A stretch of 64,000 nucleotides of DNA. It comes from Flaccisagitta enflata (lineage: Eukaryota). The position numbers and the translations under genes were made by a program. The stretch lies in the NCBI GenBank assembly GCA_965153355.1, contig OZ231126.1, forward strand, positions 26,350,001-26,414,000, given 5' to 3'. This document shows, piece after piece, positions 38,104 to 62,814 of the stretch (positions within the stretch are counted from its first letter, which is position 1; every line of letters begins with the position of its first letter). The notes under the pieces were generated by a model. It was given only the letters and a program-made list of their open reading frames with translations. It was not told the origin of the DNA and did not search any database.

Positions 38104-41943
<3,840 letters not shown>

Positions 41944-44135
41944 AAAAGTGTCTTTTAGCGTAAGGAAATTTTCATCGTGTTTTTATGATATAATGTCTCG
42001 TGTCAATCCATCTCTAGCTTCTTACTCTTTTGTGAATGAAACTGAAATGAAATAGAAGAGCAAGAATAGGCAGTGGATAAGTTTTCCAATCTGTCACAGT
42101 GTCACTACCGATTAGAATAAAGAATATTGTAACTTATCATGATTACTAGACAAAAAGGGAATTTTCAGGAAAAAAGTCGAAGTATTTTTGACATATTCCA
42201 GACAAACATGGTTTTCATCTTATGCAAAAGTTAAGGTTCTTGATCAAGTGAATGAGTCCTCAAATAAAATTAAAAGATAATTAACTTTTATAGTTCTCTT
42301 TCATTTGGCGCCAAACAAAATGCTCCATGATAAATACTTTTCTAGATATGATTTTTTCGGCTTTTTTTCATGGATTTTTTTCAAGATTCTGATTAAATTT
42401 TTTCATTTATTTCAAAATCTAAGTTATCTACCTTATTTCTATTTTCTGATTTTAAGTGTGATCAACAAAAACTACATGCCTGTTTGACTCAGAAAAGCAG
42501 GCATAAGAGATAGTGCTATTTGATGCTTTAGTTCATTTTCAATCCTATTATTGCTTATGATTACCGCTAACAAACTGAAAATGTCGTAGTGACTGAGGAC
42601 AAAGGCTTAGTTAACAAGTACCCCGGGGCACAATGGTTGAAATCGGCGATTTTGGAGCTTAAAATGTAAGGATTTTCATGAAGTTTTCTCTTTAATATCT
42701 CTTACAATGAGAAGGGGAGAACAAAAATGGAGTTAAATTCTGTTAGAAGGAGTCAAAATAAGGGGGTAGGGAAAAAAAAGTCCTAAAAAAATTTATTTTC
42801 CCCCTGTTATTGCAAGAAAAAGTGACAATGCCCGCATCATTCCTCATCAAACAAATTTTAACACCATTGTGTAGAGGAGAAACAGACTATTCTAAATATA
42901 TAAGCATGTGTGCATAAACTTGCCGGTTTGGCATTAAAAGCAGATGGAAAATCATTCTGGCAGCAATCACCTTCATCGACAATGTCCAGCTGAATCTCGA
43001 TCTAGTCATCAACAGAAATGGAAAAATGAGGAAGAGGAAGAGGATCAACAATTAGCAAGCTGAGGATGATGAAAAAATGAAATCTTTAGATATAAAGCAG
43101 AGCACCCACATTGTTTTGTGGAGAGACAGTGGCGCTGTGCCATGATGCTCTTTTTTTGTTAAGAAGTTTGGGGTTCAAGCCTTGCAAAGAAGCTTTTTTT
43201 TTTGAAAGTTAATTAGGGTTTAAATGTAAGATAATGGTTATGTATAACTCATTTAACCCATGGTTAGCCTGATAGATTTATCTCAAATACTACAATCTAA
43301 TGAAATAGTAAAGAATTCTCACAAGCTCAAGAATAAGTAAAACTCAATGGTTTGCCTTCTTTGGGCAGCGACACATATGGAGAAATTTTTCTTTCTAATT
43401 CTCCTCCTGCTTCTCCTCTTATGTCCCCCCCTATCAAGGTTCTGATTTCAGCATGGAGGCTCATATCCCAGCCTTGAGGCCCAAATCCCAGCCTTTAGGC
43501 TCAAATCCCAGCCCCAAAGCTCAATTCCCAGGCTTGAGGCCCAAGCCCTAGCTTCAAGGCTCAAATCCCAGACCTCAAGGCTCAAGGTTAAAGACTCAAA
43601 TCAAAACCTTGAACCTAAATCTCAGCCAAAAAGTCCAAAAAGTCCTGATGAAATGTTGGATAGGGAAAAAAAAACTTTTTTGCGGGATTTGAACCCCTAC
43701 CTCTGAATAAAGCCCCACAATCTTATCACTGAACCAAATCACAATCTTTCTTACAAATAATTTTTGATCATCATGATCTGAACTATTAGCAAAAGCCTTT
43801 CCCAAGTTGTTCTCATGTTTTTCATTTCAACCTCTTGCAATCATTGCAATCTGATTAGAGTGCCCTCTTCTGCCATAAACATGCATAACAGAAATTCAGA
43901 AATAAGATATATTCTCAACAGGAACTCCTATCAACCACTGTGCGGGGGTACAACGATGCGTCCACATGCGGCTTAGCTCGTTAAGAATGAGGCAATATTG
44001 CATCAACCTTGTGGAATGATGCAATAATCTGAGATATTTCCAAGATTCTATGCATTTTCATCATTCTCAACTCAATCACCACGGACGGACGGACGGATGG
44101 ACGGATGGACGGACGGATGGACGGACAGACGGACG

Positions 44136-45095: not shown

Positions 45096-46850
45096 GGACG
45101 GACCAACGGACGGACGGACGGACAAAGCCTCTTATAGAGATGCGTGGACACATCTAAAAATGGCCAGTGCATTCGACTTTTTTCCTCATGGCGATAGCCG
45201 CCATTGCTGGCAAGAAAAAACAAGAGAATAGAGTTGGAGTTCTTCAAAACACCACTAGCAAGGAATAAAAAAATCAGTTACTGACGGGTTGGCAAGCACG
45301 CAAATTGCGCGTTTTACACTTTTTACTCGGTGTTACAGATGGATAGGACAGCAGCCGAACGGACCGACGCGACGGAGAGAGGGATTAACTGACACGGTCA
45401 GACAGACAGAGCCTCTTATAGAGTCGCTAGTCCGCAGCTAAACGCCAATTACAAATCGAAAAAAGAATCCCATTCTCCAATTGTGCAACTCATGCGGTAG
45501 AAAAAGATATCTATGAAAGAGAAAAAACAGAATCACCATAACAAACTCAAGAAATATTGGCAATGGCCACAACACGAAATCCAAAATCGTTTTCTTAATT
45601 CTTGACTGGAGAATGAATTCATCAAGTAATTCCAATAGAAAAATAACAGGACTAAAAACAAAGGTATGTATCTGACCATCCAAAAGAGCCAGACTGGGAG
45701 GTTATCAGCGAGGAGAGAGTCCCACATGTACCACTTGGACAGGAAATACGAGTTAAGCGAGTGTAAAAAGCTTTGTAGAAACTCTCTTAATTCCTGCGGC
45801 AACCACAGCGGCTGAGAGATGAAGTATTCTGCGTCATGAAAAGTTCGCGTGAAAATGTGCATCATGCTCCTGGCAAAGACAAGATTCACATCCTGGGGAG
45901 CGAGCATGGTAGTGATGGACGAACTTCCTCGATATGGCGAAAGAATCACCTCATCATCGTGGAATGTGACATAATGCAACTTGATGGAATCGACGTGAAT
46001 ACATTGTGACAAGTCGTTATTCTTTGATTTTCATGAACGACTCCGTCATAATCGGTCGCTGTTAAAGTCTGATCCGTTACTATAAGCAACCCGCGTAAAG
46101 TAACCGCCATATGTCTCTTTGGATAAGATGAATTTTGGCCAGTGTTGAAATCTCGACGACATTTTTGGGCGATGAGAGCGTCTTGATTGACGGAAGGGTT
46201 AACATCGATACTTTCTATCAAAGCCTCGGAACAATCTAACTTTGACATCGCCTCCAGATCAACGGGATTTGAAGCCACCATTTCCTTGACATCGCAAAAT
46301 ATCTGACTCCAATTCCCAAAAACTCGCCGTCGACAATAATTTCGCTGCATAAAGTGGAGTTGAACTTCACTCGATCGAGCCAAATTGCCGAAAAACTCGG
46401 CCGATGCCAATTCCCAGTTTTGCATTTCTCGGCCTCCATTGTTAAAGTGAAGAAAGACATGTTTTGCGGTTTTTAATGGCTTTGTTTCCTCGACGACTCG
46501 CGCATCCTTGTCAAAATATCCATTCACCGTCACGAGTTCGAATCCCACTCCAACCGGCATTTTTTTCAGATGTGGAAGCGTCAAGAGCGCTTTCAGCGTC
46601 AAAGTTTCGACGTCAATTCCGACAATGTAAATACGTAAATCTCCTTGCAAATATTTGAACTTTTGAGGATCGCCGTAAATTGAATCGGGAAAAAATTGGA
46701 CAAAACTGTTAAAGTGACGCAGTTGAGGCGGTAACCACAAAGACAAATCTGACACTTCGGGAGTTGGTGGATTCCAAATGTTGATCAAGCTCAAAATCTC
46801 TGCACCGAAATTTGACATTTCATCGATAGTTTTCAAAAGAAATTCAATCA

Positions 46851-47608
46851 AATTCAAATTCAAATTCAAGTACTCCAATTAAGTAAGGCGAATCGCCTGT
46901 TGACTTGGAGACAAACAAGTACTACATCTACTTCCCAAGCGTTAAACCATCACAACAGTCCGTTTTTCCACCCCAAACGAAAGGACAGTCCAATTCACAG
47001 TTGCATCCCCCGAAGTTAAAGTCATTCCTTCCTTGTTTGTCCTTCTTGACGCCTCGTTCCTAAGGCGTCCCGTATTTCCGCCATGAATTGGCGCATCTCT
47101 TGCGCCATCGATGTCCCCGCCTCTTCTTGCTGTTGCTGTTGCTGACGTAGATGTCGATCATCGCGTTGTTGGAAGGATTGTTGCCGCGCGTTATGGTATT
47201 GTTCCTGGCGTGAGGTGCGGCCTCTTCCGGAGTTGTGTTGTTGATTGTGTGGCCCATGATAGTCTCTTGTTGGCGAACGGGACCGGTGTCTCTGACCCTG
47301 AGTTTCTTCGATTGAGAATGAAGAGCGGTGATGCGGCGTTGCGCCGCCACGGAGAGGACCGCCGCCGCCGCGGTGGGTGTTGCCGCCGCGGTGGGTGTTG
47401 CCACCACGGTAGGTGTTGCCGCCATGGTAGGTGTTGCCGCCACGGTGGGTGTTGCCGCCACGGTGGGTGTTGCCGCCATGATCGGTGCCGCCACGATGGA
47501 CGCCGCCATGATTGGTGCCGCCACGATGGACACCGCCATGGCCGTTGCCGTCGTCGTTGTTGTTGTTGTTGTTGTTGTTACCTCTTCCGCGTTGTTCCCA
47601 TGACGACT
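46851..47608 (-). mobile_element. Retroposed-looking insert with Gly/His/Arg-rich ORF end and (TTTGAA)n tail
   Basis: Separates QHQFD from LIEF, which are contiguous in B' (QHNYDELIEL). Contains 18-bp RGGNTH repeats, a stop at 47022, ~160 bp of non-coding sequence, then ttgaatttgaatttgaatttga. Confidence 0.55.
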
Positions 47609-48175
47609 TGTCAAATTGATGTTGAGTCTCGAAATCATTGAGCAAATCGATCATTTCCTTTGTATGATTATGAAGCCATATGTTTGAAAGCAGAGGACTC
47701 ATTCCCTCGGAAAGAAACTACATTTCATAAGCACAACCAATGGACAAAATTGTATTTTCAGCTTGATCTGAGCGTTTACGTAGTCAATCTGAGTCTTTTA
47801 CTGGCACTCTGGTACAAAAATGCGATCAAAAATGAACTAGTTTCATCATTTGAGTTTTGGTTTCGGAGGTATTTAGATCATTGCCGCTCTTTGAGAGGGT
47901 CTGTCCATCGGTCTGTGCAAATGTCCCCATGTCCGTTTGTCCTTTCCTCTAATGTCCGATGGCCGCTACCAAAAAAACTACATTTTCGGCACTTTTTGAC
48001 AAATTGTAATGTCAAATGACCAATACAGGGCTCTACACAGATGACGCCTTAATACGGCGTATTTCTGAAGGCAACATTTGTGTTTCAACGGGGGCTAAAA
48101 TCAAAACTTAAAAATGAATAAAAATGAATGATTATACCAAAATAATCATTGAAATATGTCACAGATATTATTTTG

Positions 48176-48770
48176 ACCATAAGTGCAATAAAAATGGCCG
48201 ATTTTTCAACTACTTTGAGCACAGGTTTTGGTCAAAATATTCTTGAAACCATCCTAAAATTCATGCTGTGTAGAGAGTTATCAAAAATATCTTGCATTTG
48301 ACTCCATGCAGCAATTTTTTTCTCATTTTTTTTCAGAAAATGTGACAAATAAAAGGCTAACAACTAAATTGCCACCTCATGAAAAAACAAACCAAATTTG
48401 TCACTCGGATTTTCTGAAATATTTTAGAAGAGTAAAAATGTTAGAAGATCTTCATCGATTTTGATGAAATTTTGGGTGCTAGTTGACCAGTATATGCCCC
48501 AATTTCAATTCAATTTTCATCAATATCGGGCAATGTCTTCCATGATTTTTTATGGAACTTTGTAAAGATACCATGGGCAGTTTCAAAATTGAGGGGTTTG
48601 GCTAATCTTACTCTCGTTTGCATATTCATCAAGTTGGTGGTCCCACAAACGTTTCAAATAAAAGAACTTTTGAAGGGCTTTCCAGGTGTCATGAGTTTTG
48701 CTATCTTTGGATAAGTTCTAGTTCCTTTACAGACCTTTCAAAAATCGGCCATTTTTATTGCACTTATGGT
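48176..48770. mobile_element. MITE in intron of gene B
   Basis: TIR accataagtgcaataaaaatggccgattttt / aaaaatcggccatttttattgcacttatggt. Confidence 0.8.
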
Positions 48771-50541
48771 TATTGCAAAATTTGCATTAAATCATGAAAT
48801 AGAATCAAATATTGGTAAAGTTGATAAAGAAAATATATTGCAAATTACAGAAAATTTCATTCTTGGTCACTGACAGGGGGCCGTTTAAATTCTAAGATTG
48901 CATAAAAAATGAAAAAATAAGAAAATAAAAAACATAGTTCTCTTCCAAAAACAATTACGGAGAGAACTATGTTTTTGAAAATGCAAAATTTCCCTGCATT
49001 TGAAAGTCTTAGAATTTAAATGGCAATAAAAGATAAAAAAATGTAAGCAAGATTTTATTAAAACCTGGATTTTCTTGTCTTTTTTTATGAGAATTGCATA
49101 GTTTGAATTACTTTTGAGGTCAGAATATGATGAATATGTATACACCAAGTGTCTTTAAAGACAATTTGTCTATTAAAAGCATTCCTACACCATTATGATG
49201 CTGATAATGATGTAAAAAGTATGGTGAAACACTTAATTTTCCTTCAAAAATTCGCCGTCTTAAGTTGCCCACACGGGCTTGTTACATTCTCTGAAACATT
49301 TTTAAACTAGAATTACATACATTGAATATTAAAACAAAGCTTCCTTTGCAAATGCGTGAACTCATATCCTTTTTTCAAAAAAAAATTGAGAGATTGACAA
49401 ATTGACTACCAAGAAACATTTTGTCCACTGACTGTGTTGCCATGAAGACATGAGTCTTCATTCTTAAACCAATCATCGACATCAGCCAAGTCCAACGATC
49501 CGCTGATCCTTGGTAAAGAAGGTAGAGACACTCTGCCAACAACATGCTGGTCAGAAGGAGATTCCACCTTCGCATTGTAAACTGGCGCAATATAACGCAA
49601 AAAGTCAATTGTCGAAGATGGACTGACGTGAATCCCGCGTTGAACGTCATTGGCGTTATTTGTGTCCGTGTCCAATGGCAACGACTCAAAAAAACAAAAA
49701 ACATCTTTTGTCCACTCCTTTCGAAGAATGAGTTTTTTTGGGGAGTGCAATAGCAGTGCATCGTCGTTCCACAGTATATTATTATTAGACATGTCAACAC
49801 TGTTTAACTCTTTGACCCCACATCTATTTTCCACGAACGCTTTTCTTCTTCTTTTTTTCATTTTTGACACCAATTTCCTTAAGGCAACTCGCAAATTCGT
49901 GACAAGTCTCGTGATTTTCCATCTCACGTGATTTCCGGCGGATTCGTCGACGTCGACAAAAGTTTGAAGATTCCGCGGCGGTTGAAGAATCGAATCCGGC
50001 AGCACTTTGACGGTCGACGGGAAGAGGAGAAAGCCGTCTTCCTCGTAGATCGTCTCACGAACGTTGATGGCGCTACAAGTCGATGGATGAAGGAAAGTTT
50101 TGCGCCGGTAGGTGGAATTGTAGGTGTCACTTTTCTTATCGTTGGCAACCGTGGCGTTACTACCGAACTTGTTGGTGGTGTTGCTAGTGGCAAATTTACC
50201 GACGTCGTTGGAGGAATTGTTGAGTGTGGCGTGCGAGACATGGTTGATGGCGTTGCTTGTGACGTGGTTTTGGACATCGCGAATATCGCTGGAGGGCTGG
50301 TTCGTGGCGGCGCCAGGGCTGGTAATTGCGCTGACGTGGGCGGGATTGTTAAGGGTGTTTGCGATGGCGTTTTCATCGGCGTTTTTGAAGGTATTTGCGG
50401 TGTCTACCTCAGCAGCGCCACAATTTAGCGCTGACAAAATGGACAGAAAGGTGATGAGGAAAAATGAAGAAGGAGGACAGGTCGATGAATTGACGGAAAT
50501 GCACACCTGACAGTAAACATAGGAAATTGGCGTTGTCATCG

Positions 50542-52875: not shown

Positions 52876-53464
52876 CAGTACGATGGGAGCAATGACGACC
52901 TAGACTGGAGGCTAGATTTTAGGTATCTTAATTTCATTTGTATCATAAAATATTTGAGATCTAGGTTAATTAAAGGTTGCTCTATTGAATGAAAATGTTT
53001 GTGTCTCTTAAACTTCAATTTGTGACTTGACCTCATCAAGACTTTATTTCTCAAAGTTCTAACCTATCCTAATAGATTGGGTAGAAAATTTTTAATAGTT
53101 TTGAAAAAAAAATCAGCTCAATCGGTCTATTTTTACAGGTTTTATGGCCATTTTAAGTTTTGCACAAAAACTAATTTACATAAATTTTGTTTATTAAAGA
53201 TAGCCATAAAACCTGTAAAAACAGTCCAATTGAGCTGATTTTTTTTTCAAAATAATATAAAATTTTTCGCCAATCTAATGAATTAGGTTAGAACTTAAAA
53301 AAAAAAATCTTGATGAGGTCAAGTCACAAGTTTAAGTTTAAGAGACGCAAATGCATTCACTCAACAGAGCAACCTTTAATTAGCCTAGATCTCAAATATC
53401 TAATAATACACATGAAATTAAGATACCTAAAATCTATCCTCCAGTCATTGCTCCCATCGTACTG
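52876..53464. mobile_element. Fold-back MITE with TA TSD
   Basis: cagtacgatgggagcaatgac / gtcattgctcccatcgtactg with TA flanks; nearly the whole element is one inverted repeat. Confidence 0.88.
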
Positions 53465-55375: not shown

Positions 55376-57840
55376 TTAGATCTTATTCTTGCTCTTGGCA
55401 TGCTCCGCTTTATGCCTCTGAAACCAGTCTTCTTTGCAGCATTCCACGCTGCAATACAGCATTCTTTCCTCAACCCTCCTCTCTTTCTTGCATTTGACGC
55501 AAGTAAGAAAAGTTTGAGGCACCATTTCGACTTTCTTGCAATGTCTGCATTGAGCTATGACAACCATTGAAGATTTGTTATCCATTGACTGAATCTCCGA
55601 CATCTGCAAGGCAGTTGAAGATGAATCTGAGATTCTGCTGTCTTCAGCGAGTATCTTCGTTGGCTCCTCAGAATGGTTGACATTCCATTTGAAAGCAGAA
55701 GTCGCTAAGGAGAAAATTGTGTCAATGTAGCCCCATAGACAAGATGCAAACCAGCAATTGCCTTCATGAGCAGCGAAAAGTATGTGCCGGAGTATTTCTA
55801 CGGTGAAATTGCTGATGCAAGTCGCTAATGAGAAAATTGCAACAAAAAAGCCCCAAAGGCAGGATGCAGACCAGCAAATACCATCATATGCAGCAAGGAG
55901 TATTTGCCAGAGAATTTCTACGGTGAACCAAATATATGCGCGTGGAAAAAACAGAATGACTTTGATGAAGAAATGAATCAAGGATTTGCAATACAGCATG
56001 ATTTTTGATTTGGCGAATTTCCTTACTTTCTTAGCTATGTAATTTTCCACAATGGCCTTTAGATCGCAATTGGAATCGGTTCTGTTGTTGCAAAGAATAG
56101 TTAATTTGCTAGTACATGCCCAAGCAGCCAAAAGAAGCAGTACTATGTATAACCTAATCTCAGAAAAGTTGTGGGCATCTGGATGGCTGCAGCGTTCACA
56201 TCTCCAAGCAGCATAAAAACCACCTCCACAACTGCTGAAAAAAGACATCACACTTTCATACTTCATTGTTGAAAACACATGACATCTGGGCTTGCCATTT
56301 GGATCTGGTGTCAACAAGATCTCCCCAACGTAGCTCTGCGTTACTCCAATAACTGTTTCATTGGTAAACACCAAGAACTGGTCGTTGTGATTAATCGAGA
56401 AGTGTTGTTGATGATTGTTCTCTCTGATGTTGTTGAAATTGCATCTCCATTCGGGCTCTCTTTTTTGATCCCGCAGTATGTCCAATGCACATTGTGGATC
56501 TCCTCCTGATGAAATGCTGCTTTCCTCAAGTCGCCTCTTCATGAGATCAAAATCGCAGTATAGCTCTTTAGTTTGAAGATCATGGTACTGGCAAAATTGA
56601 CGAGAAAACCATCTTAAACTGACTTTATTTGACCTGAGATGAAATTGGAGATAGTTAGGGTCAGAGAGCTGTTCATAATCGACATTAGTAAAATTAGAAA
56701 AATCAAGATAAGCTGAAAAATGCATATTAGTTGTATATGACTGATGAACGTGAAGTTGCTCTTTGTCAGTTTTCAACGACTCAATACCATTTATTTTCAA
56801 ATGTACGGGTCTTGAAGCCTTTATTGTACGCTGGCCGCCGGGGAAATGTCCCATCCAAACAATTTCAACACCGCGCGGTTTCTTTTCTAATACCGGCGTC
56901 ACAACCAAGAAAGATATTTCAAATTTCCTGAGATCAATGCCGGTCAGTAAAGTGGATGATTGGTTAATGAGCAAATGCAAATTATCCAAGGCCTTTCCAC
57001 TTAGTGAATTGCGATGGACAAGCTCTGTTTCTTCATCAACCAACTCGAAAATTTCAGCGTGAAGATCATGCCGTGGGTAACCATGGACAGTTTTTTCTTT
57101 TTGGAAAAGCGTACGGTTCCAGTCTTGAAATTTGGCTTCATGTCCTTCCAATAAGTCTCTTACGGTGACAGCAAAATTAATGAGATCTTGCTCTTGGGGA
57201 CTATCAACTAGATTTTCAGCATCTGAGAGAGTGAGGCGGTGTATTTCCTCTGCGTCTGTTGCATTTAATACCCAATTTTTTAGCATATCTTTGCTGACTC
57301 TCTGGCGTTTGGTGATGCGGAAAGTTTTGTCCATTTCCCACGTGGCAGTGTCATCACCACCGCCGAGGCTGTTGTAGACGGGCGTCGCGTAACGCAGAAA
57401 GTCTTGCCATTTTTCAGGTTTGATTCCTATTTTTGACGGTATTTGTGGGCCAAAATCGTCCTGTTCAAGTACCTCGTAAAAGCAACCCAAAATGTTGTCA
57501 CTCCTGACGACCGACGTCACGAGCGGATTTTCGCGTTTGCGATCATCGGGGAACAAAGGGTCATTGTCATCATCAACGCCAATTGCCACCTCTTTGGGCG
57601 GCTGGGCTTCTTTCAACACGTTTTTGTCTTCATCATTGCTGCGATTGAAGTTGATATTGTTGGGGATACTGTAGCTGTTCTTGTTGATAGCATATCCGTC
57701 GTTCGATTGTTTCAAATTACGTTTTTTTCTAGGATTCATGCTGCTTAAATTTCCATATTCATGCTGTTTATAGTCATCGGCATTCTTACTTGGAGAAAAA
57801 GTTTTGGAATCTGTTATTCTTTTGAGAAATAGATCGATGA

Positions 57841-57916
<76 letters not shown>

Positions 57917-58306
57917 CCTTCGTAGCCTGCAAACATCACTAGACTCAGCCTCGACTCTGAAAGAATCGATGGTAAGTAGAAAAGATCGGGGCATATCCTG
58001 AATCTTTGTAACAATCGCTTTTTTCAGTTCATCACTGACAATTTTAGGATAGTCTTCAGTCATTGCTGCACATGAGGAGTATTCTTCACGCGGCTTACGG
58101 TGCAATTCGATTAACCAATCGGGAACGAGTTTAAGAACGACTGGACGAATGGCGTATCCATCTTGATTGTAGACAGTTTCCTTGATGTAGACTTGATGAC
58201 AATCATCTTCAGTTAAAGATTCGTGGATTAGAAGATTGGAGGCGTCAACAACGACACTAATCGACGCCAGAAACAGCAGTGTCCCTGAGGAGATGGAATT
58301 AATCAT
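55376..58306 (-). CDS. Gene A': ~976-aa paralogue of gene A with signal peptide, poly-Asn, RKKR site, F/env-like ectodomain, hydrophobic segments and C-terminal MYND-type zinc finger
   Basis: Single ORF (open from 58438; first ATG 58306 precedes the hydrophobic TLLFLASISVVVDA). Shares HESLTxDDCHQV, GIKPEKWxDFLRYATPVY, FSRQFCQY, QCALD and the zinc finger with A. Confidence 0.9.
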
Positions 58307-58492
58307 CTTGAAAGAGATGCGTTTGAGATTGTCATAAACGGAGGCGCCTTTTAGACTGCACTGTGTCAAACATTCTTTTGTTTCATAGCACTGGGTGAAT
58401 AGATCTGAAATGTGAAAAGACGTCCATTGACGTGACACTCGAGAGAATAGTTAGCACTTGGCAGGTTATAGAATAGTCAGTGGTTATATATG

Positions 58493-59157: not shown

Positions 59158-60672
59158 TTAGAAACCTAAGAGAAATCTGAAAAAGAATCCCAGTCTACGA
59201 TCACGTATCTCATGCGGTAAAAAAAGATATCTATGGATTAGAAAGAACAGGGTTTCTAAAACTAATTCCAGAACTATATATAATGGCTGTAACGTCGTAT
59301 CCATCAATTTCGACTGCAAAAGGAAAATATCAAGCATTTGAAGAACAAATGATATTGGCACAACATAATATGGAATGTCTCTGATAATCAAAAACAGCCA
59401 GTCCGGAAGGTTTTCGGCAAGAAACGCATCCCAAAAATACCACACGTACAGGATGTGAGATTGGGTATAGTGAGTCAGACTTTCTTGAAACTCCCTCACT
59501 TCCACAGGTGTCCACAATGGCTGAGAATCGTAGAATAGTTCTGTATTGTTGAATATTCCCCTAAAAACTAACATCATGTGATACCGTAAGGCCACATTCT
59601 CATCCCAGAATGAGGCTGCGATGGATGCACTTCTTTTTAGAGGCGAAAGCATCTCTTCATGGTCGTAAAATGTGACGTAATGGAACATCCGTGAATCCAC
59701 ATGAATACATTGCGACGAGTCATCATTCTTTGATTTATTATGAAGGTTATGGACATTCCCATCATAATCGGTGGCAGTTAACGTTTGATCTGTCACTATA
59801 AGAGAACCACGCGAAGACCTCACCATGTGCCGTCTTGGGTAAGACAAGTTTCTACCAGTATCAAACTCCCGATGACATATTTGAGCGATGAGAGCATCTT
59901 GATCGATGGAAGGAGCCTCACTGAGACTAAACAACAAAAGCTCGGAACAATCCAACTTTGACATTGATTCATAGTCCACGGGATTTGAGGCGTGGTTTTC
60001 TTTGATGTTGCAGAATGATTGGCTCCAATCTCCAAACCTTCTTATTCGGCAGTAATTGTGTTGCAGGAAATGAACTTCACTTGAAAGTAGCAAATTGGGG
60101 ATGTGTTCGGCAGATGACAACTCGCTTGTATCAAAGTCCCGTTTTCCATCGTTGAAGGATAACAAAACATCCTTGGCAACCTGCAACGGAGTCGTTTCCT
60201 CGACAACTCTTCCCTCCTTCACGTAATATCTATTCACAGCCACGAGTTCGATTCCCACTCCCACCGGTGCTTTTTTCAAATCCGGAAGAGTGAACAGTAG
60301 TTTCAGTGTAAAGGTTTCAACATCAATACCGACGATATACAGACGCAAATCACCCTGTAAGTACTCAAACTTGTGAAGGTCACTGTAAATCGAATCGGGG
60401 AAACTTTTGACAAAACTTTCCAAGTCACGAAGTTGAGGCGGAAGCAAAAGGGAAAAATCCAACATTTCCGGCAATTGTTCGGTCCAAACATTGGTCAAGC
60501 TCAATGTCTCCGCTCCAAAATTTGACATTTCATCGACAGTTTTGGAAAGAAGTTCAATCAACTCGTCATAATTATGCTGAATCTCGCTTTGGTTCAGCAA
60601 CAGATGCATTTCCTCGATATCATTGAGGAGACCCAAGGCTAAAAACAAAAGATCAAGCTCCCCAGATGGAAA
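59158..60672 (-). CDS. Gene B' exon 2 (F/env-like core and C-terminal hydrophobic segments)
   Basis: Acceptor cactaactgtatttgtag|TTTCCA at 60673/60672 is phase 0 and in frame with the 496-aa ORF. An equivalent acceptor exists in B (47718/47717). Confidence 0.85.
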   Translation of the reverse strand, partial: FPSGELDLLFLALGLLNDIEEMHLLLNQSEIQHNYDELIELLSKTVDEMSNFGAETLSLTNVWTEQLPEMLDFSLLLPPQLRDLESFVKSFPDSIYSDLHKFEYLQGDLRLYIVGIDVETFTLKLLFTLPDLKKAPVGVGIELVAVNRYYVKEGRVVEETTPLQVAKDVLLSFNDGKRDFDTSELSSAEHIPNLLLSSEVHFLQHNYCRIRRFGDWSQSFCNIKENHASNPVDYESMSKLDCSELLLFSLSEAPSIDQDALIAQICHREFDTGRNLSYPRRHMVRSSRGSLIVTDQTLTATDYDGNVHNLHNKSKNDDSSQCIHVDSRMFHYVTFYDHEEMLSPLKRSASIAASFWDENVALRYHMMLVFRGIFNNTELFYDSQPLWTPVEVREFQESLTHYTQSHILYVWYFWDAFLAENLPDWLFLIIRDIPYYVVPISFVLQMLDIFLLQSKLMDTTLQPLYIVLELVLETLFFLIHRYLFLPHEIRDRRLGFFFRFLLGF

Positions 60673-60681
60673 CTACAAATA

Positions 60682-60974
60682 CAGTTAGTGGACAAAAACA
60701 TCTTTTTAGGAAAAATCTATAAACCTGCAATCTATCTAAATTTGATAATTTGCTTCTGAATTTAGAAACAGTGAAATTATTAGAATTAATCGTTAATAGT
60801 CTTGACATCTTAAAAGTTAAACATTTAACAGTCTGAAAACTCATGTATGCATTCATTAAAACACCAAAATTTTTGTAGCTGTTTAATCAAATGTTTTATA
60901 AATATATTTCAATATCATAAATTTTATGGCTTTCTAGCAATGGAGGATATAAAGATCATTTTGTCCACTGACTG
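60682..60974. mobile_element. TIR element (Tc1/mariner-like MITE) forming almost all of the B' intron
   Basis: ta-cagttagtggacaaaaacatcttt at 60682 and aaagatcattttgtccactgactg ending at 60974. Confidence 0.8.
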
Positions 60975-61605
60975 TCTCGACGAAAGGATTAGACTCTTCA
61001 TCGTTAAACCAAGCATCGATATCAGAAACGTCTTCCTGCCTGATTCTCGGCATATCAGTCTGAAATGTCATACCAATGGACTGCCGAGAAGATGAGACAC
61101 GATGAGTCACGTTGTAAAGTGGAGCAACGTAACCCAAGAAATCGAACGTCGAAGATGAACTGACGTGAATTCCCCGCGAATTGTCGGTGACGTTATTGCC
61201 ATCATTTACAATGTCGCTGTTATTGACGATCCTGGTATCATCGACATTGTTGACGTTATTGGCGTCACTTTTTAACGGTAACGCCTCAAAAAAACAAAAA
61301 ACATCTTTCGGCCAAGCCTTGTGATGAACGAGATTTTGCGCTTGATGCATGACATCATGGTTCCAAACAATGTTGCCGAATTCTGCGGGGTTGACGATAG
61401 TCGGCGTTGTTATCGATGTGGTCACTGTTGCTGTGGTAGTCGTCGTTGATAATAATGTTGTTTTTATTGTCGTTTTCATTGTCGTTGAAGTCCTTGAAAT
61501 TGTAGTTGTCACTGTAATTTTTTCGTTTTCAATGTTGACTTTTCCAATGTCATTTTCGTTGTTGTTAATATCTTCGTTTTCTGTCATGTTGAATTTGCTG
61601 TCGTT

Positions 61606-61642
<37 letters not shown>

Positions 61643-61759
61643 CGATTGATGTCACTGTCATTGTTGTTGTCTTCATCATTATCAAAGTCATTGTACCTCT
61701 CACTGTCATTGTGGTCTTCATTGTCGTGATTTCCGTCATGGTTGCTTGCACTGTCAAAG

Positions 61760-61850
<91 letters not shown>

Positions 61851-62249
61851 CATGTTCGATGTCGTTGCCGTTTTTCTTTTCTGCTTGCTCCACCTCCTTC
61901 TCCACTTCCACCTTCTCTTCCCCCTCCTCCTCTTCGTCCCCGCATCTTTTTTCCACAATCGCCTTTTTTCTTTTTTTCTCCATTTTGGCGATTAATTTCC
62001 TCAAAGCCTCTCGTAGATTCATAATCAGTTTCGTGACATTGTTTTTCATGTGATTTCCGGCTAAATCGTCGGCGCCGAGATGAGATTCAGATTCTCCCGG
62101 AAGTCTTAGAATCGAATCCGGAAGCAACTTGATCGTCGTCGGGAAAAGGAGGAATCCGTCTTCCTCGTAGATGACATCCCCAACGTTGATGGCGGTGCAA
62201 GTCGATGGATGAAGGAACGTTTGGCGTGGAAAGGTGGCGTCGCTGGCAC

Positions 62250-62342
<93 letters not shown>

Positions 62343-62814
62343 AGGTACTGCTGGTGATGTTGCTATCAAAGGTACTTGTAGTAATGTTGTTATCTTCATT
62401 CTTGGCGTTGAAGACTGGCCCGTTGTTGGCGTCGTTATTGTCGGTGTTGATGCTATTGGTGCCGCTATTGTTGTTGTCGATGGCGCTGCAAGTCAATGAA
62501 CAAAGAAACGGATTATGTCGGTATGAGACGAAGTTGGTGTCATTTGCGGCGTTTTTGTTCTTGCCAATGTTGCCATTGAAGTTGGCGCTGTGGCAGTCTC
62601 CGACGTCGCATTCCCTAGTGGTGTTTGGAATATGGTAAGTTTTGCGGTTTAAGACGTTATTTTCAGAGCAGGGAACGGTCGAGATGAGGTAGAAGGCGAT
62701 AATGAAGAATGAGAATACGAAAATTGTCGATGAAACAGTGGAAATACGAGCCTGGGCAGGTTGGGGAATGAATAAAAAAGAATTGAATAAGAAAATTAAT
62801 ACAGTGTGATTCAT
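60973..62814 (-). CDS. Gene B' exon 1 (signal region, poly-Asn tracts, basic KKRKK site); spliced product ~1118 aa
   Basis: ATG at 62814; donor ACA|gtcagt at 60973/60972 is conserved in B (49433/49432). Homologous to B exon 1 and, more distantly, to the A N-terminus. Confidence 0.82.

What the first reader, a model, noticed from the sequence alone, without database searches (positions are those of the whole stretch)
60673..60974. Intron apparently created by a TIR transposon: donor in one TIR, branch point in the other
The predicted 300-bp B' intron (60972-60673, minus strand) nearly coincides with a 293-bp TIR element (60682-60974). The donor GTCAGT begins 2 nt inside one TIR (CA|GTCAGTGGACAAAA). 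The opposite TIR reads TTTTGTCCACTAACTG and supplies a CTAAC branch-point consensus just before tatttgtag. Splicing restores the frame. Paralogue B keeps the same donor TIR (to 49434), a decayed second TIR (~47733-47749) and the same acceptor register, while the homologous region in A/A' is uninterrupted. This is introner-like intron gain in a formerly intronless gene, predating the B/B' duplication.
Basis: partly seen in the sequence, partly recalled or inferred. Interest (0 to 1): 0.78.

Follow-up and report, generated by a model that had tools for sequence, protein, structure and literature searches.

The report
Transposon remnant serving as an intron
A small jumping DNA element landed inside a formerly unbroken gene and appears to have become an intron whose start signal comes from the element's own end; this is a known route of intron birth, seen here once rather than genome-wide, in a gene family whose predicted shape resembles viral fusion proteins.

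Summary
A 293-bp element (60682-60974) has inverted ends. GT lies 2 nt inside one end and AG 9 nt beyond the other, and removing those 300 nt leaves one open frame. The 16-mer end has 2,371 exact genomic matches against 0 for the control. It marks a MITE family with 4-bp target duplications, not TA (39 of 63 elements exact). Five tandem paralogues are uninterrupted and colinear at this site. Paralogue B shares the donor and the phase. Best reading (0.75): one insertion before the B/B' duplication, now spliced. Splicing is inferred; no RNA reads were laid. It is not a family-wide introner: no other sampled copy has long frames on both sides, and acceptors are not enriched after TIRs (80 vs 78). 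The branch-point claim is weak: the A sits at -13, and B has lost it. Both splice sites score weak against 61 myosin introns. Unexplained: all four TIR cores are intact although the interiors no longer align and synonymous sites have diverged (p 0.42), which hints at selection on an RNA stem. Side finding: the host family folds like class I viral fusion proteins.

The parts
60973..62814 (-). B' exon 1 (first ATG at 62814); its last codon contains the first two bases (CA) of the element
   Evidence: homology to paralogues
60673..60972 (-). predicted 300-nt phase-0 GT-AG intron of B'
   Evidence: frame restored; best profile score among 6 junctions scored
60682..60974 (.). 293-bp TIR element (MITE remnant); interior unique, no TSD left
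60951..60974 (-). 5' inverted arm (16-nt family core 60959-60974 plus a local extension); carries the donor CA|GTCAGT
60682..60705 (-). 3' inverted arm (core 60682-60697); holds CTAAC at 60688-60684, candidate branch A 60685 (-13)
   Evidence: branch use is inferred only
60705..60709 (-). alternative branch-like motif CTAAA, A at -34
60673..60681 (-). 9 nt outside the element that end in the acceptor TAG (co-opted from host flank; inferred)
   Evidence: family boundary
59158..60672 (-). B' exon 2, 504 codons, first ATG at codon 22; codons 1-14 still family-like
   Evidence: allele P0011 97.5% identical
49433..50539 (-). B exon 1, ending in the same codon as B' exon 1
47718..49432 (-). predicted 1,715-nt phase-0 intron of B; arms 49418-49434 and 47734-47750 form 17 contiguous pairs (3 G.U) on the sense strand
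48067..49268 (.). two repeats nested in the B intron (49268-48777 plus 48173-48067; 48773-48176), 71-89% identical to copies elsewhere
45441..47717 (-). B exon 2; in this haplotype broken by a ~755-bp insert (46852-47606) and by frame changes near 46030 and 45645
55376..58450 (-). A': single-ORF distant homologue with a weak MYND-finger match, uninterrupted at the homologous site
38104..41982 (-). A: single-ORF distant homologue with a weak MYND-finger match, uninterrupted at the homologous site

Best explanation
A non-autonomous DNA transposon of the CAGTCAGTGGACAAAA family (4-bp TSD) inserted once into a loop-coding stretch of an intronless gene, before the B/B' duplication. Its 5' arm carries a cryptic donor (CA|GTCAGT), and an AG in host sequence just beyond the 3' arm became the acceptor. 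The spliceosome removes a phase-0 intron that leaves 2 element bases in the mRNA and drops a few host bases, so the protein is restored to within the family's natural loop length. Shown: sequence anatomy, the family, its TSD, empty-site paralogues, shared site in B and B'. Inferred: splicing itself, a single origin, which adenine is the branch point, and any role of the arm-arm stem.
For: (1) Family: 2,371 exact TIR matches vs 0 control; 39 of 63 two-ended copies have identical 4-bp flanks and 16 more differ at one base. (2) Empty sites: five tandem paralogues C1-C5 and the database protein P0004 are continuous here. The loop between the conserved W-F/L and the next P is 10-15 residues in them and 12 in spliced B'. 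The B-type clade is nested among them (support 99/99, midpoint root). (3) This junction scores best against a profile of the uninterrupted proteins: 41.5 bits vs 40.4, 32.2, 31.8, 30.9 and 26.1 for 5 alternatives scored, out of 17 other frame-keeping pairs listed. (4) Both exons show dN/dS below 1 between B and B': 0.46, 0.55, 0.39 (first 37 codons of exon 2) and 0.20. (5) Exon-2 codons 1-14 of B' lie upstream of its first ATG, behind an in-frame stop, yet score 17-19 against the family (intact paralogues 12-30; after simulated neutral decay -0.4 to 10; P 0.004-0.21). (6) Database alleles P0011 and P0007 carry open exon 2 frames of B' and B. (7) In the model of paralogue C3 the site is a loop between helices 227-235 and 248-259, inside the region 46-390 that aligns as one unit, so a split gene would cut a fold.
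Against: No transcript evidence: no reads were laid, and no database protein spans the junction (and a metagenome scan found none; weak negatives). Splice signals are poor against this genome's myosin introns: only 2 of 61 donors and 0 of 61 acceptors score lower than those of B'; B's acceptor is weaker still; none of the 61 has A at -1 (the introns are my own predictions from 18 myosin regions). The 9-nt-upstream donor scores almost as well in the profile test (40.4 bits). B's first 14 exon-2 residues are not family-like (score 1.3). Neither interior aligns to the other or to any sampled subfamily, and no TSD remains, so element identity rests on the arms alone.
Confidence: 0.75

Rival explanations
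1. The insertion is not cis-spliced. It split the gene into two cistrons: exon 1 ends a few codons into the element and exon 2 is translated alone (for example after trans-splicing at the same AG), or both genes are decaying.
For: Weak splice signals. Read-through gives the same six codons in B and B', which could explain the conserved 5' arm as coding sequence. B is broken in this haplotype.
Against: Family-like residues upstream of the first ATG of B' exon 2; dN/dS 0.2-0.55 on both sides; the GT and AG give the family's loop length; open exon 2 alleles in other samples; the site lies inside one structural unit; it does not explain the conserved 3' arm core.
Confidence: 0.12
2. The region is spliced, but at other sites (such as donor 60981, or donor 60968 or 60938 with acceptor 60639), so the TIR does not supply the working donor.
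For: 18 frame-keeping donor/acceptor pairs exist nearby; 60981/60673 scores 40.4 vs 41.5 bits; acceptor 60639 scores slightly higher than 60673 on the matrix (1.68 vs -0.05).
Against: In the scan of 60901-61100 only 60972 and 61073 score above zero on the donor matrix, and 61073 is not among the frame-keeping pairs, whose scan stopped just short of it. 60972 is the donor kept identically in B. Pairs using acceptor 60639 score 26-32 bits.
Confidence: 0.07
3. The arms are young. Either two family members inserted independently at the same site in B and B', or an old insert was re-written by excision and gap repair from another family member, which would reset the arms and swap the interior (mechanism recalled from P-element replacement; no call). 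This can coexist with splicing and would remove the need for selection on the stem.
For: Arms are near consensus while the B and B' interiors do not align (173 of 200 shuffles score as well). Family arms are generally more conserved than interiors (28 of 30 far-end cores intact at 80-99% interior identity).
Against: Young copies keep their TSD (55 of 63 within one mismatch); B and B' have none. Neither interior has a match among 170 sampled arms or in a genome DNA search. B and B' share the rarer bases at arm positions 17-18 and the same TGTAG|TTT acceptor (only 185 of 2,371 arms lack C at position 17).
Confidence: 0.06

Closest known systems
Introners derived from TIR DNA transposons (Gozashti et al. 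2022, PMC9860276: passages and section 7 read; PMC12130899: passages read)
   Same: Non-autonomous TIR element with a 4-bp TSD; carries the 5' splice site and co-opts the 3' site from flanking sequence (their Fig. 2C pattern); small in-frame change at the junction (Fig. 2F-G); lower GC than the exons.
   Different: They define families by at least four similar introns. Here there is one event in two paralogues, the interiors do not align, the TSD is lost, and the parent family shows no sign of forming introns elsewhere.
Singular transposon-derived introns (review PMC11282704, part 2 of 5 read; PMC3443670, passages read: 35 events listed in Oryza, Drosophila, Oikopleura, Zea)
   Same: One-off intron gain in which the element supplies a splice site near its boundary and a latent site nearby is activated.
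   Different: Here the inverted arms remain near consensus long after the interior has become unrecognisable, and the event is dated by a gene duplication.
Introns whose ends pair: euglenid nonconventional introns (PMC11282704) and Hypoxylaceae symmetrical stwintrons (PMC8469720, passages read)
   Same: Terminal inverted repeats predicted to bring the intron ends together.
   Different: This intron has canonical GT-AG ends. In the fungal paper symmetry is reported as not needed for splicing, and the donor G and branch A are often unpaired; here the donor GU is predicted to pair with the candidate branch AC.
Class I viral fusion proteins (paramyxo-/pneumovirus F), for the host gene only
   Same: Model residues 46-390 of paralogue C3 align to prefusion F (Z 8.8, rmsd 5.0, 202 aligned; Z 7.8, rmsd 5.6, 208 aligned among 48,161 chains); hydrophobic N-terminus and C-terminal helices; intronless.
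   Different: 7-13% identity, model pLDDT 49, Foldseek best E 8e-4 (viral) and 0.017 (PDB); no sequence-level match; function not shown.

Membership tests
MITE / non-autonomous TIR DNA transposon | terminal inverted repeats | tested here: met
   15/16 (21/24) in B', 13/16 in B
MITE / non-autonomous TIR DNA transposon | many dispersed short non-coding copies with these ends | tested here: met
   2,371 exact arm matches; size classes near 260, 310 and 470-530 bp
MITE / non-autonomous TIR DNA transposon | target-site duplication in the family | tested here: met
   39 of 63 exact 4-bp, 16 with one mismatch
MITE / non-autonomous TIR DNA transposon | target-site duplication at this copy | tested here: not met
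   GAGA/TATT in B', AACA/TGCT in B; read as decay, which is inference
MITE / non-autonomous TIR DNA transposon | interior homologous to other copies | tested here: inconclusive
   no match in the genome DNA search (which skips common words) or to 170 arms and 3 subfamily profiles; only about 130 loci of more than 2,371 arms were sampled
   TA on both sides in 7 of 63, and 6 of those are 4-bp duplications
Sola1 or Ginger2 (4-bp TSD superfamilies, PMC3845634 passages) | AWWT target (Sola1) or TGT termini (Ginger2) | tested here: not met
   targets mostly TNNA (TAAA 7, TATA 6, TACA 6, TTAA 3, TGAA 3 of 39), termini CAG; superfamily left unassigned
Any DNA transposon superfamily | autonomous partner with a transposase between these arms | tested here: inconclusive
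   none in 14 regions of 2-10 kb read inward from unusual arms
Introner family (PMC9860276) | at least four sequence-similar introns | tested here: not met
   one event in two paralogues. Of 127 element-orientation rows only B' has long frames on both sides (408/497 codons; next best 84; blind to short exons and UTR introns). TTTYAG after an arm 80 vs control 78
Spliceosomal U2 intron | GT-AG ends that restore the frame and homology | tested here: met
Spliceosomal U2 intron | absent from mature mRNA | not tested
Spliceosomal U2 intron | branch adenine inside the 3' arm | not testable with these tools
   motif present at -13 in B', lost in B; alternative at -34; needs lariat reads
Class I viral fusion protein (host gene) | prefusion F-like fold | tested here: inconclusive
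   all 11 rows covering residues ~46-390 among the top 50 of 48,161 chains are viral fusion proteins, but Z 6.3-7.8 on a low-confidence model
Class I viral fusion protein (host gene) | cleavage site, fusion peptide, trimer, fusion activity | not tested
   no call examined these

The most novel reading that the evidence does not exclude
The transposon's inverted arms have been kept by selection as an RNA stem that holds a weak donor next to a weak acceptor, across 0.3 kb in B' and 1.7 kb in B. The former transposase-binding ends would then be a required splicing element of a canonical intron, in a tandem family of domesticated viral-fusion-like genes. Support: the 8-nt core is intact at all four ends (neutral P 1e-4 to 1e-3; 0.009-0.04 for B's two ends alone, which were not how the element was found). 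B's three arm changes all keep G.U pairs on the sense strand (about 0.06 by the family's 30 of 77 spectrum). The arms pair in the predicted fold of both introns.
Probability: 0.3. Interest if true: 0.75.

Novelty: new member of a known kind. Interest (0 to 1): 0.5.

Why it matters
Intron gains with a named source element, empty-site paralogues next door and a duplication that dates them are uncommon. This one shows an ordinary MITE, whose ends happen to read as a donor on one strand and a branch motif on the other, making an intron only where a host AG fell in frame. That is the step before a true introner. If the arms prove necessary for splicing, it would show how a newborn intron with poor signals survives. 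Separately, the host family may be a captured viral fusion gene that became a multi-copy host gene and then gained an intron.

Tried and rejected
RNA: the run search listed 2 metatranscriptome runs with a 0.05 share and 1 unindexed poly(A) run. No reads were laid, so these are no evidence of expression or habitat. Junction-spanning proteins: none; metagenome scans found nothing. Family-wide donor improvement: GTRAGT arms 44 vs control 35, and 30 such loci were mostly ordinary copies. The CTAAC arm variant occurs 55 times, mostly in ordinary copies, so it is a common transition. 'The arm is just this genome's splice consensus': rejected, 0 of 61 myosin introns carry either core. A weak similarity of the B' interior to the ~520-bp subfamily (z 3-4) vanished with dinucleotide shuffles (22 of 100 as high). 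The nhmmer test returned nothing even for shuffles and is uninformative. The 'median length' printed is a script error; one search gives 388 nt over all candidates. The age control is confounded by nested inserts. Other unique-interior copies (L073, L075) show no coding-intron anatomy. No transposase-bearing partner in 14 regions. Pfam, PDB-sequence and Atlas searches gave no family for B/C proteins (the Atlas's methyltransferase rows scored under 0.9 and were set aside). One alignment for a domain-only fold failed on a frame slip and was not repeated. The Sola superfamily paper was not held. Literature searches found no paper on selection for TIR pairing in a canonical animal intron; the library lacks most subscription journals and no supplements were read. 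The organism was not identified.

Full report
Observation. The sequence is as described. On the minus strand a 293-bp element (60974-60682) has 16-nt inverted arms with one mismatch, extending to 21 of 24 nt. GT begins 2 nt inside the 5' arm; an AG ends 9 nt beyond the 3' arm. The 300 nt between are 25.7% GC against 44.3% and 41.7% in the flanking exon bases. Unspliced, the frame stops 13 codons in; removing the 300 nt gives one open frame. Paralogue B has the same donor arm (18 nt identical), a 13/16 second arm, an AG 16 nt beyond it and the same phase, over 1,715 nt that include two nested repeats.

The element family. The 16-mer pattern has 2,371 exact matches in the 794-Mb genome and the reversed control has none. 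In 119 loci drawn from four pattern searches, 63 distinct two-ended copies other than B' were found. Of these, 39 have identical 4-bp flanks and 16 differ at one base, mostly TNNA; only 7 have TA on both sides. This is a MITE family with a 4-bp TSD, not a TA-duplicating Tc1/mariner. It also fails the Sola1 and Ginger2 signatures given in PMC3845634 (passages read). No transposase-bearing copy was found in 14 regions, so the superfamily is open. The B' and B copies have lost their TSD, and their interiors match neither each other nor any sampled subfamily. Their membership rests on the arms.

Empty sites. Five closer paralogues (C1-C5, G000:C1:26.419-26.520 Mb, 35-39% identical) are continuous across this position, as is the database protein P0004. 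Their loop here is 10-15 residues; spliced B' has 12. B, B' and P0005 form a clade (99/99) among uninterrupted members, with a midpoint root only. A and A' are distant homologues, also uninterrupted. Gain in the B lineage is the simplest reading (inference).

Is it spliced? This was not observed: no reads were laid, and searches for a junction-spanning protein found none. Indirect support is fourfold. The junction is the best of six scored against a profile of uninterrupted proteins (41.5 bits; next 40.4). dN/dS between B and B' is 0.46 and 0.55 in exon 1 and 0.39 and 0.20 in exon 2. The first 14 codons of B' exon 2 lie behind a stop and before the first ATG, yet remain family-like (P 0.004-0.21 against simulated decay; B's do not). 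Other samples hold open exon 2 frames of both genes, so B's lesions belong to this haplotype. Against it, both signals are poor. Of 61 predicted myosin introns (kept from 87 candidates by strand and score margin), only 2 donors and no acceptor score lower than those of B', and B's acceptor is worse.

Branch point. The family arm reads as a donor (GTCAGT) on one strand and as a branch motif (CTGAC) on the other, so every copy carries both. B' has the CTAAC variant, which occurs 55 times in the genome. Its A lies at -13, whereas 11 of 14 CTRAY adenines in myosin introns lie at -20 to -46. B has lost this A, and B' has a second candidate at -34.

Not a family-wide introner. Of 127 element-orientation rows only B' has long open frames on both sides (408 and 497 codons; next best 84). 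This test misses short exons and UTR introns. Acceptor-like TTTYAG follows an arm 80 times against 78 for a reversed control. Stronger-donor variants are not enriched (44 vs 35). PMC9860276 requires four similar introns per family; this case has one event.

What remains unexplained. B and B' differ at 44 of 104 fourfold sites and their interiors do not align, yet the 8-nt arm core outside the splice consensus is intact at all four ends. The neutral chance is 1e-4 to 1e-3, or 0.009-0.04 for B's two ends alone. B's three arm changes all leave G.U pairs on the sense strand, giving 17 contiguous pairs (duplex -21.9 sense vs -15.0 antisense; about 0.06 by the family spectrum). The arms pair in the predicted folds of both introns (z -2.15 for 60673-60974, only -1.07 with flanks). 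A stem that holds weak sites together would explain both the weak signals and the kept arms. A stem could equally hide the donor, PMC8469720 reports that symmetry is not needed in fungal introns, and re-writing of the arms by gap repair is not excluded. I put this at 0.3.

Host gene. No Pfam, PDB-sequence or Atlas family was found for the B and C proteins; only 6 relatives were found among 1.84 billion representatives. A model of C3 (pLDDT 49) matches class I viral fusion proteins over residues 46-390: Foldseek E 8e-4 and 0.017, Z 8.8 with rmsd 5.0 over 202 residues. In the unbiased search all 11 rows covering that region are viral fusion proteins (best Z 7.8). That is a lead, near the tool's stated noise level. 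The intron site is a loop inside this region.

Comparison and verdict. It works like a TIR introner that carries its donor and co-opts its acceptor (PMC9860276, section 7 read), but it belongs with the singular transposon-derived introns (PMC11282704, part 2 of 5; PMC3443670, passages). Two unchecked earlier notes of this scan describe similar one-off cases in other animal genomes, which lowers novelty. New member of a known kind; splicing inferred at 0.75; interest 0.5, raised by the empty-site paralogues, the kept arms and the possible viral origin of the host family.

Noticed in passing
window 38104-62814 and G000:C1:26418774-26519940: A tandem array of about ten related, largely intronless genes (A, A', A'', B, B', a B-like remnant, C1-C5) whose model resembles prefusion class I viral fusion proteins; possibly an endogenised viral gene expanded by the host.
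   Followed up: partly
window ~42045-42085 and ~58405-58490; G000:C1:26427657-26427690: The acceptor-like sites upstream of A, A' and A'' carry a branch-position motif resembling the TIR's 3' arm (12 of 13 nt in A''); no donor-side arm was found upstream. This may be a second, older co-option or chance.
   Followed up: partly
window 46852-47606: A ~755-bp insert in B exon 2 with a Gly/His/Arg-rich open frame, absent from allele P0007; it looks like a retroelement fragment (impression only).
   Followed up: no
window 48067-49268; L028/L029, L065, L080, L148: The two repeats nested in the B intron are also found nested inside or beside other copies of the same TIR family.
   Followed up: no
L081, L082, L083, L085, L087: Tandem arrays of a ~450-bp unit, each unit carrying one TIR arm, at five places on C2 and C4.
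   Followed up: no
L075:1500-1630 and L073:1500-1770: Copies with near-intact arms, unique AT-rich interiors and no TSD, like B'. L075 lies about 36 nt after a stop codon, between two open frames, and could be a UTR intron.
   Followed up: partly
window 45441-41982 and 59158-58450: B-type and A-type genes lie as repeated same-strand pairs, B' only about 700 bp from A', suggesting duplication of a two-gene unit.
   Followed up: no
L159:8998-9594: An open frame resembling the N-terminus of a pogo/Tigger-type transposase (recalled resemblance, not scanned), 9 kb from an arm and probably unrelated.
   Followed up: no
window 52903-53446: A 152-nt inverted repeat pair (88%) 240 nt apart, probably another MITE.
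   Followed up: no
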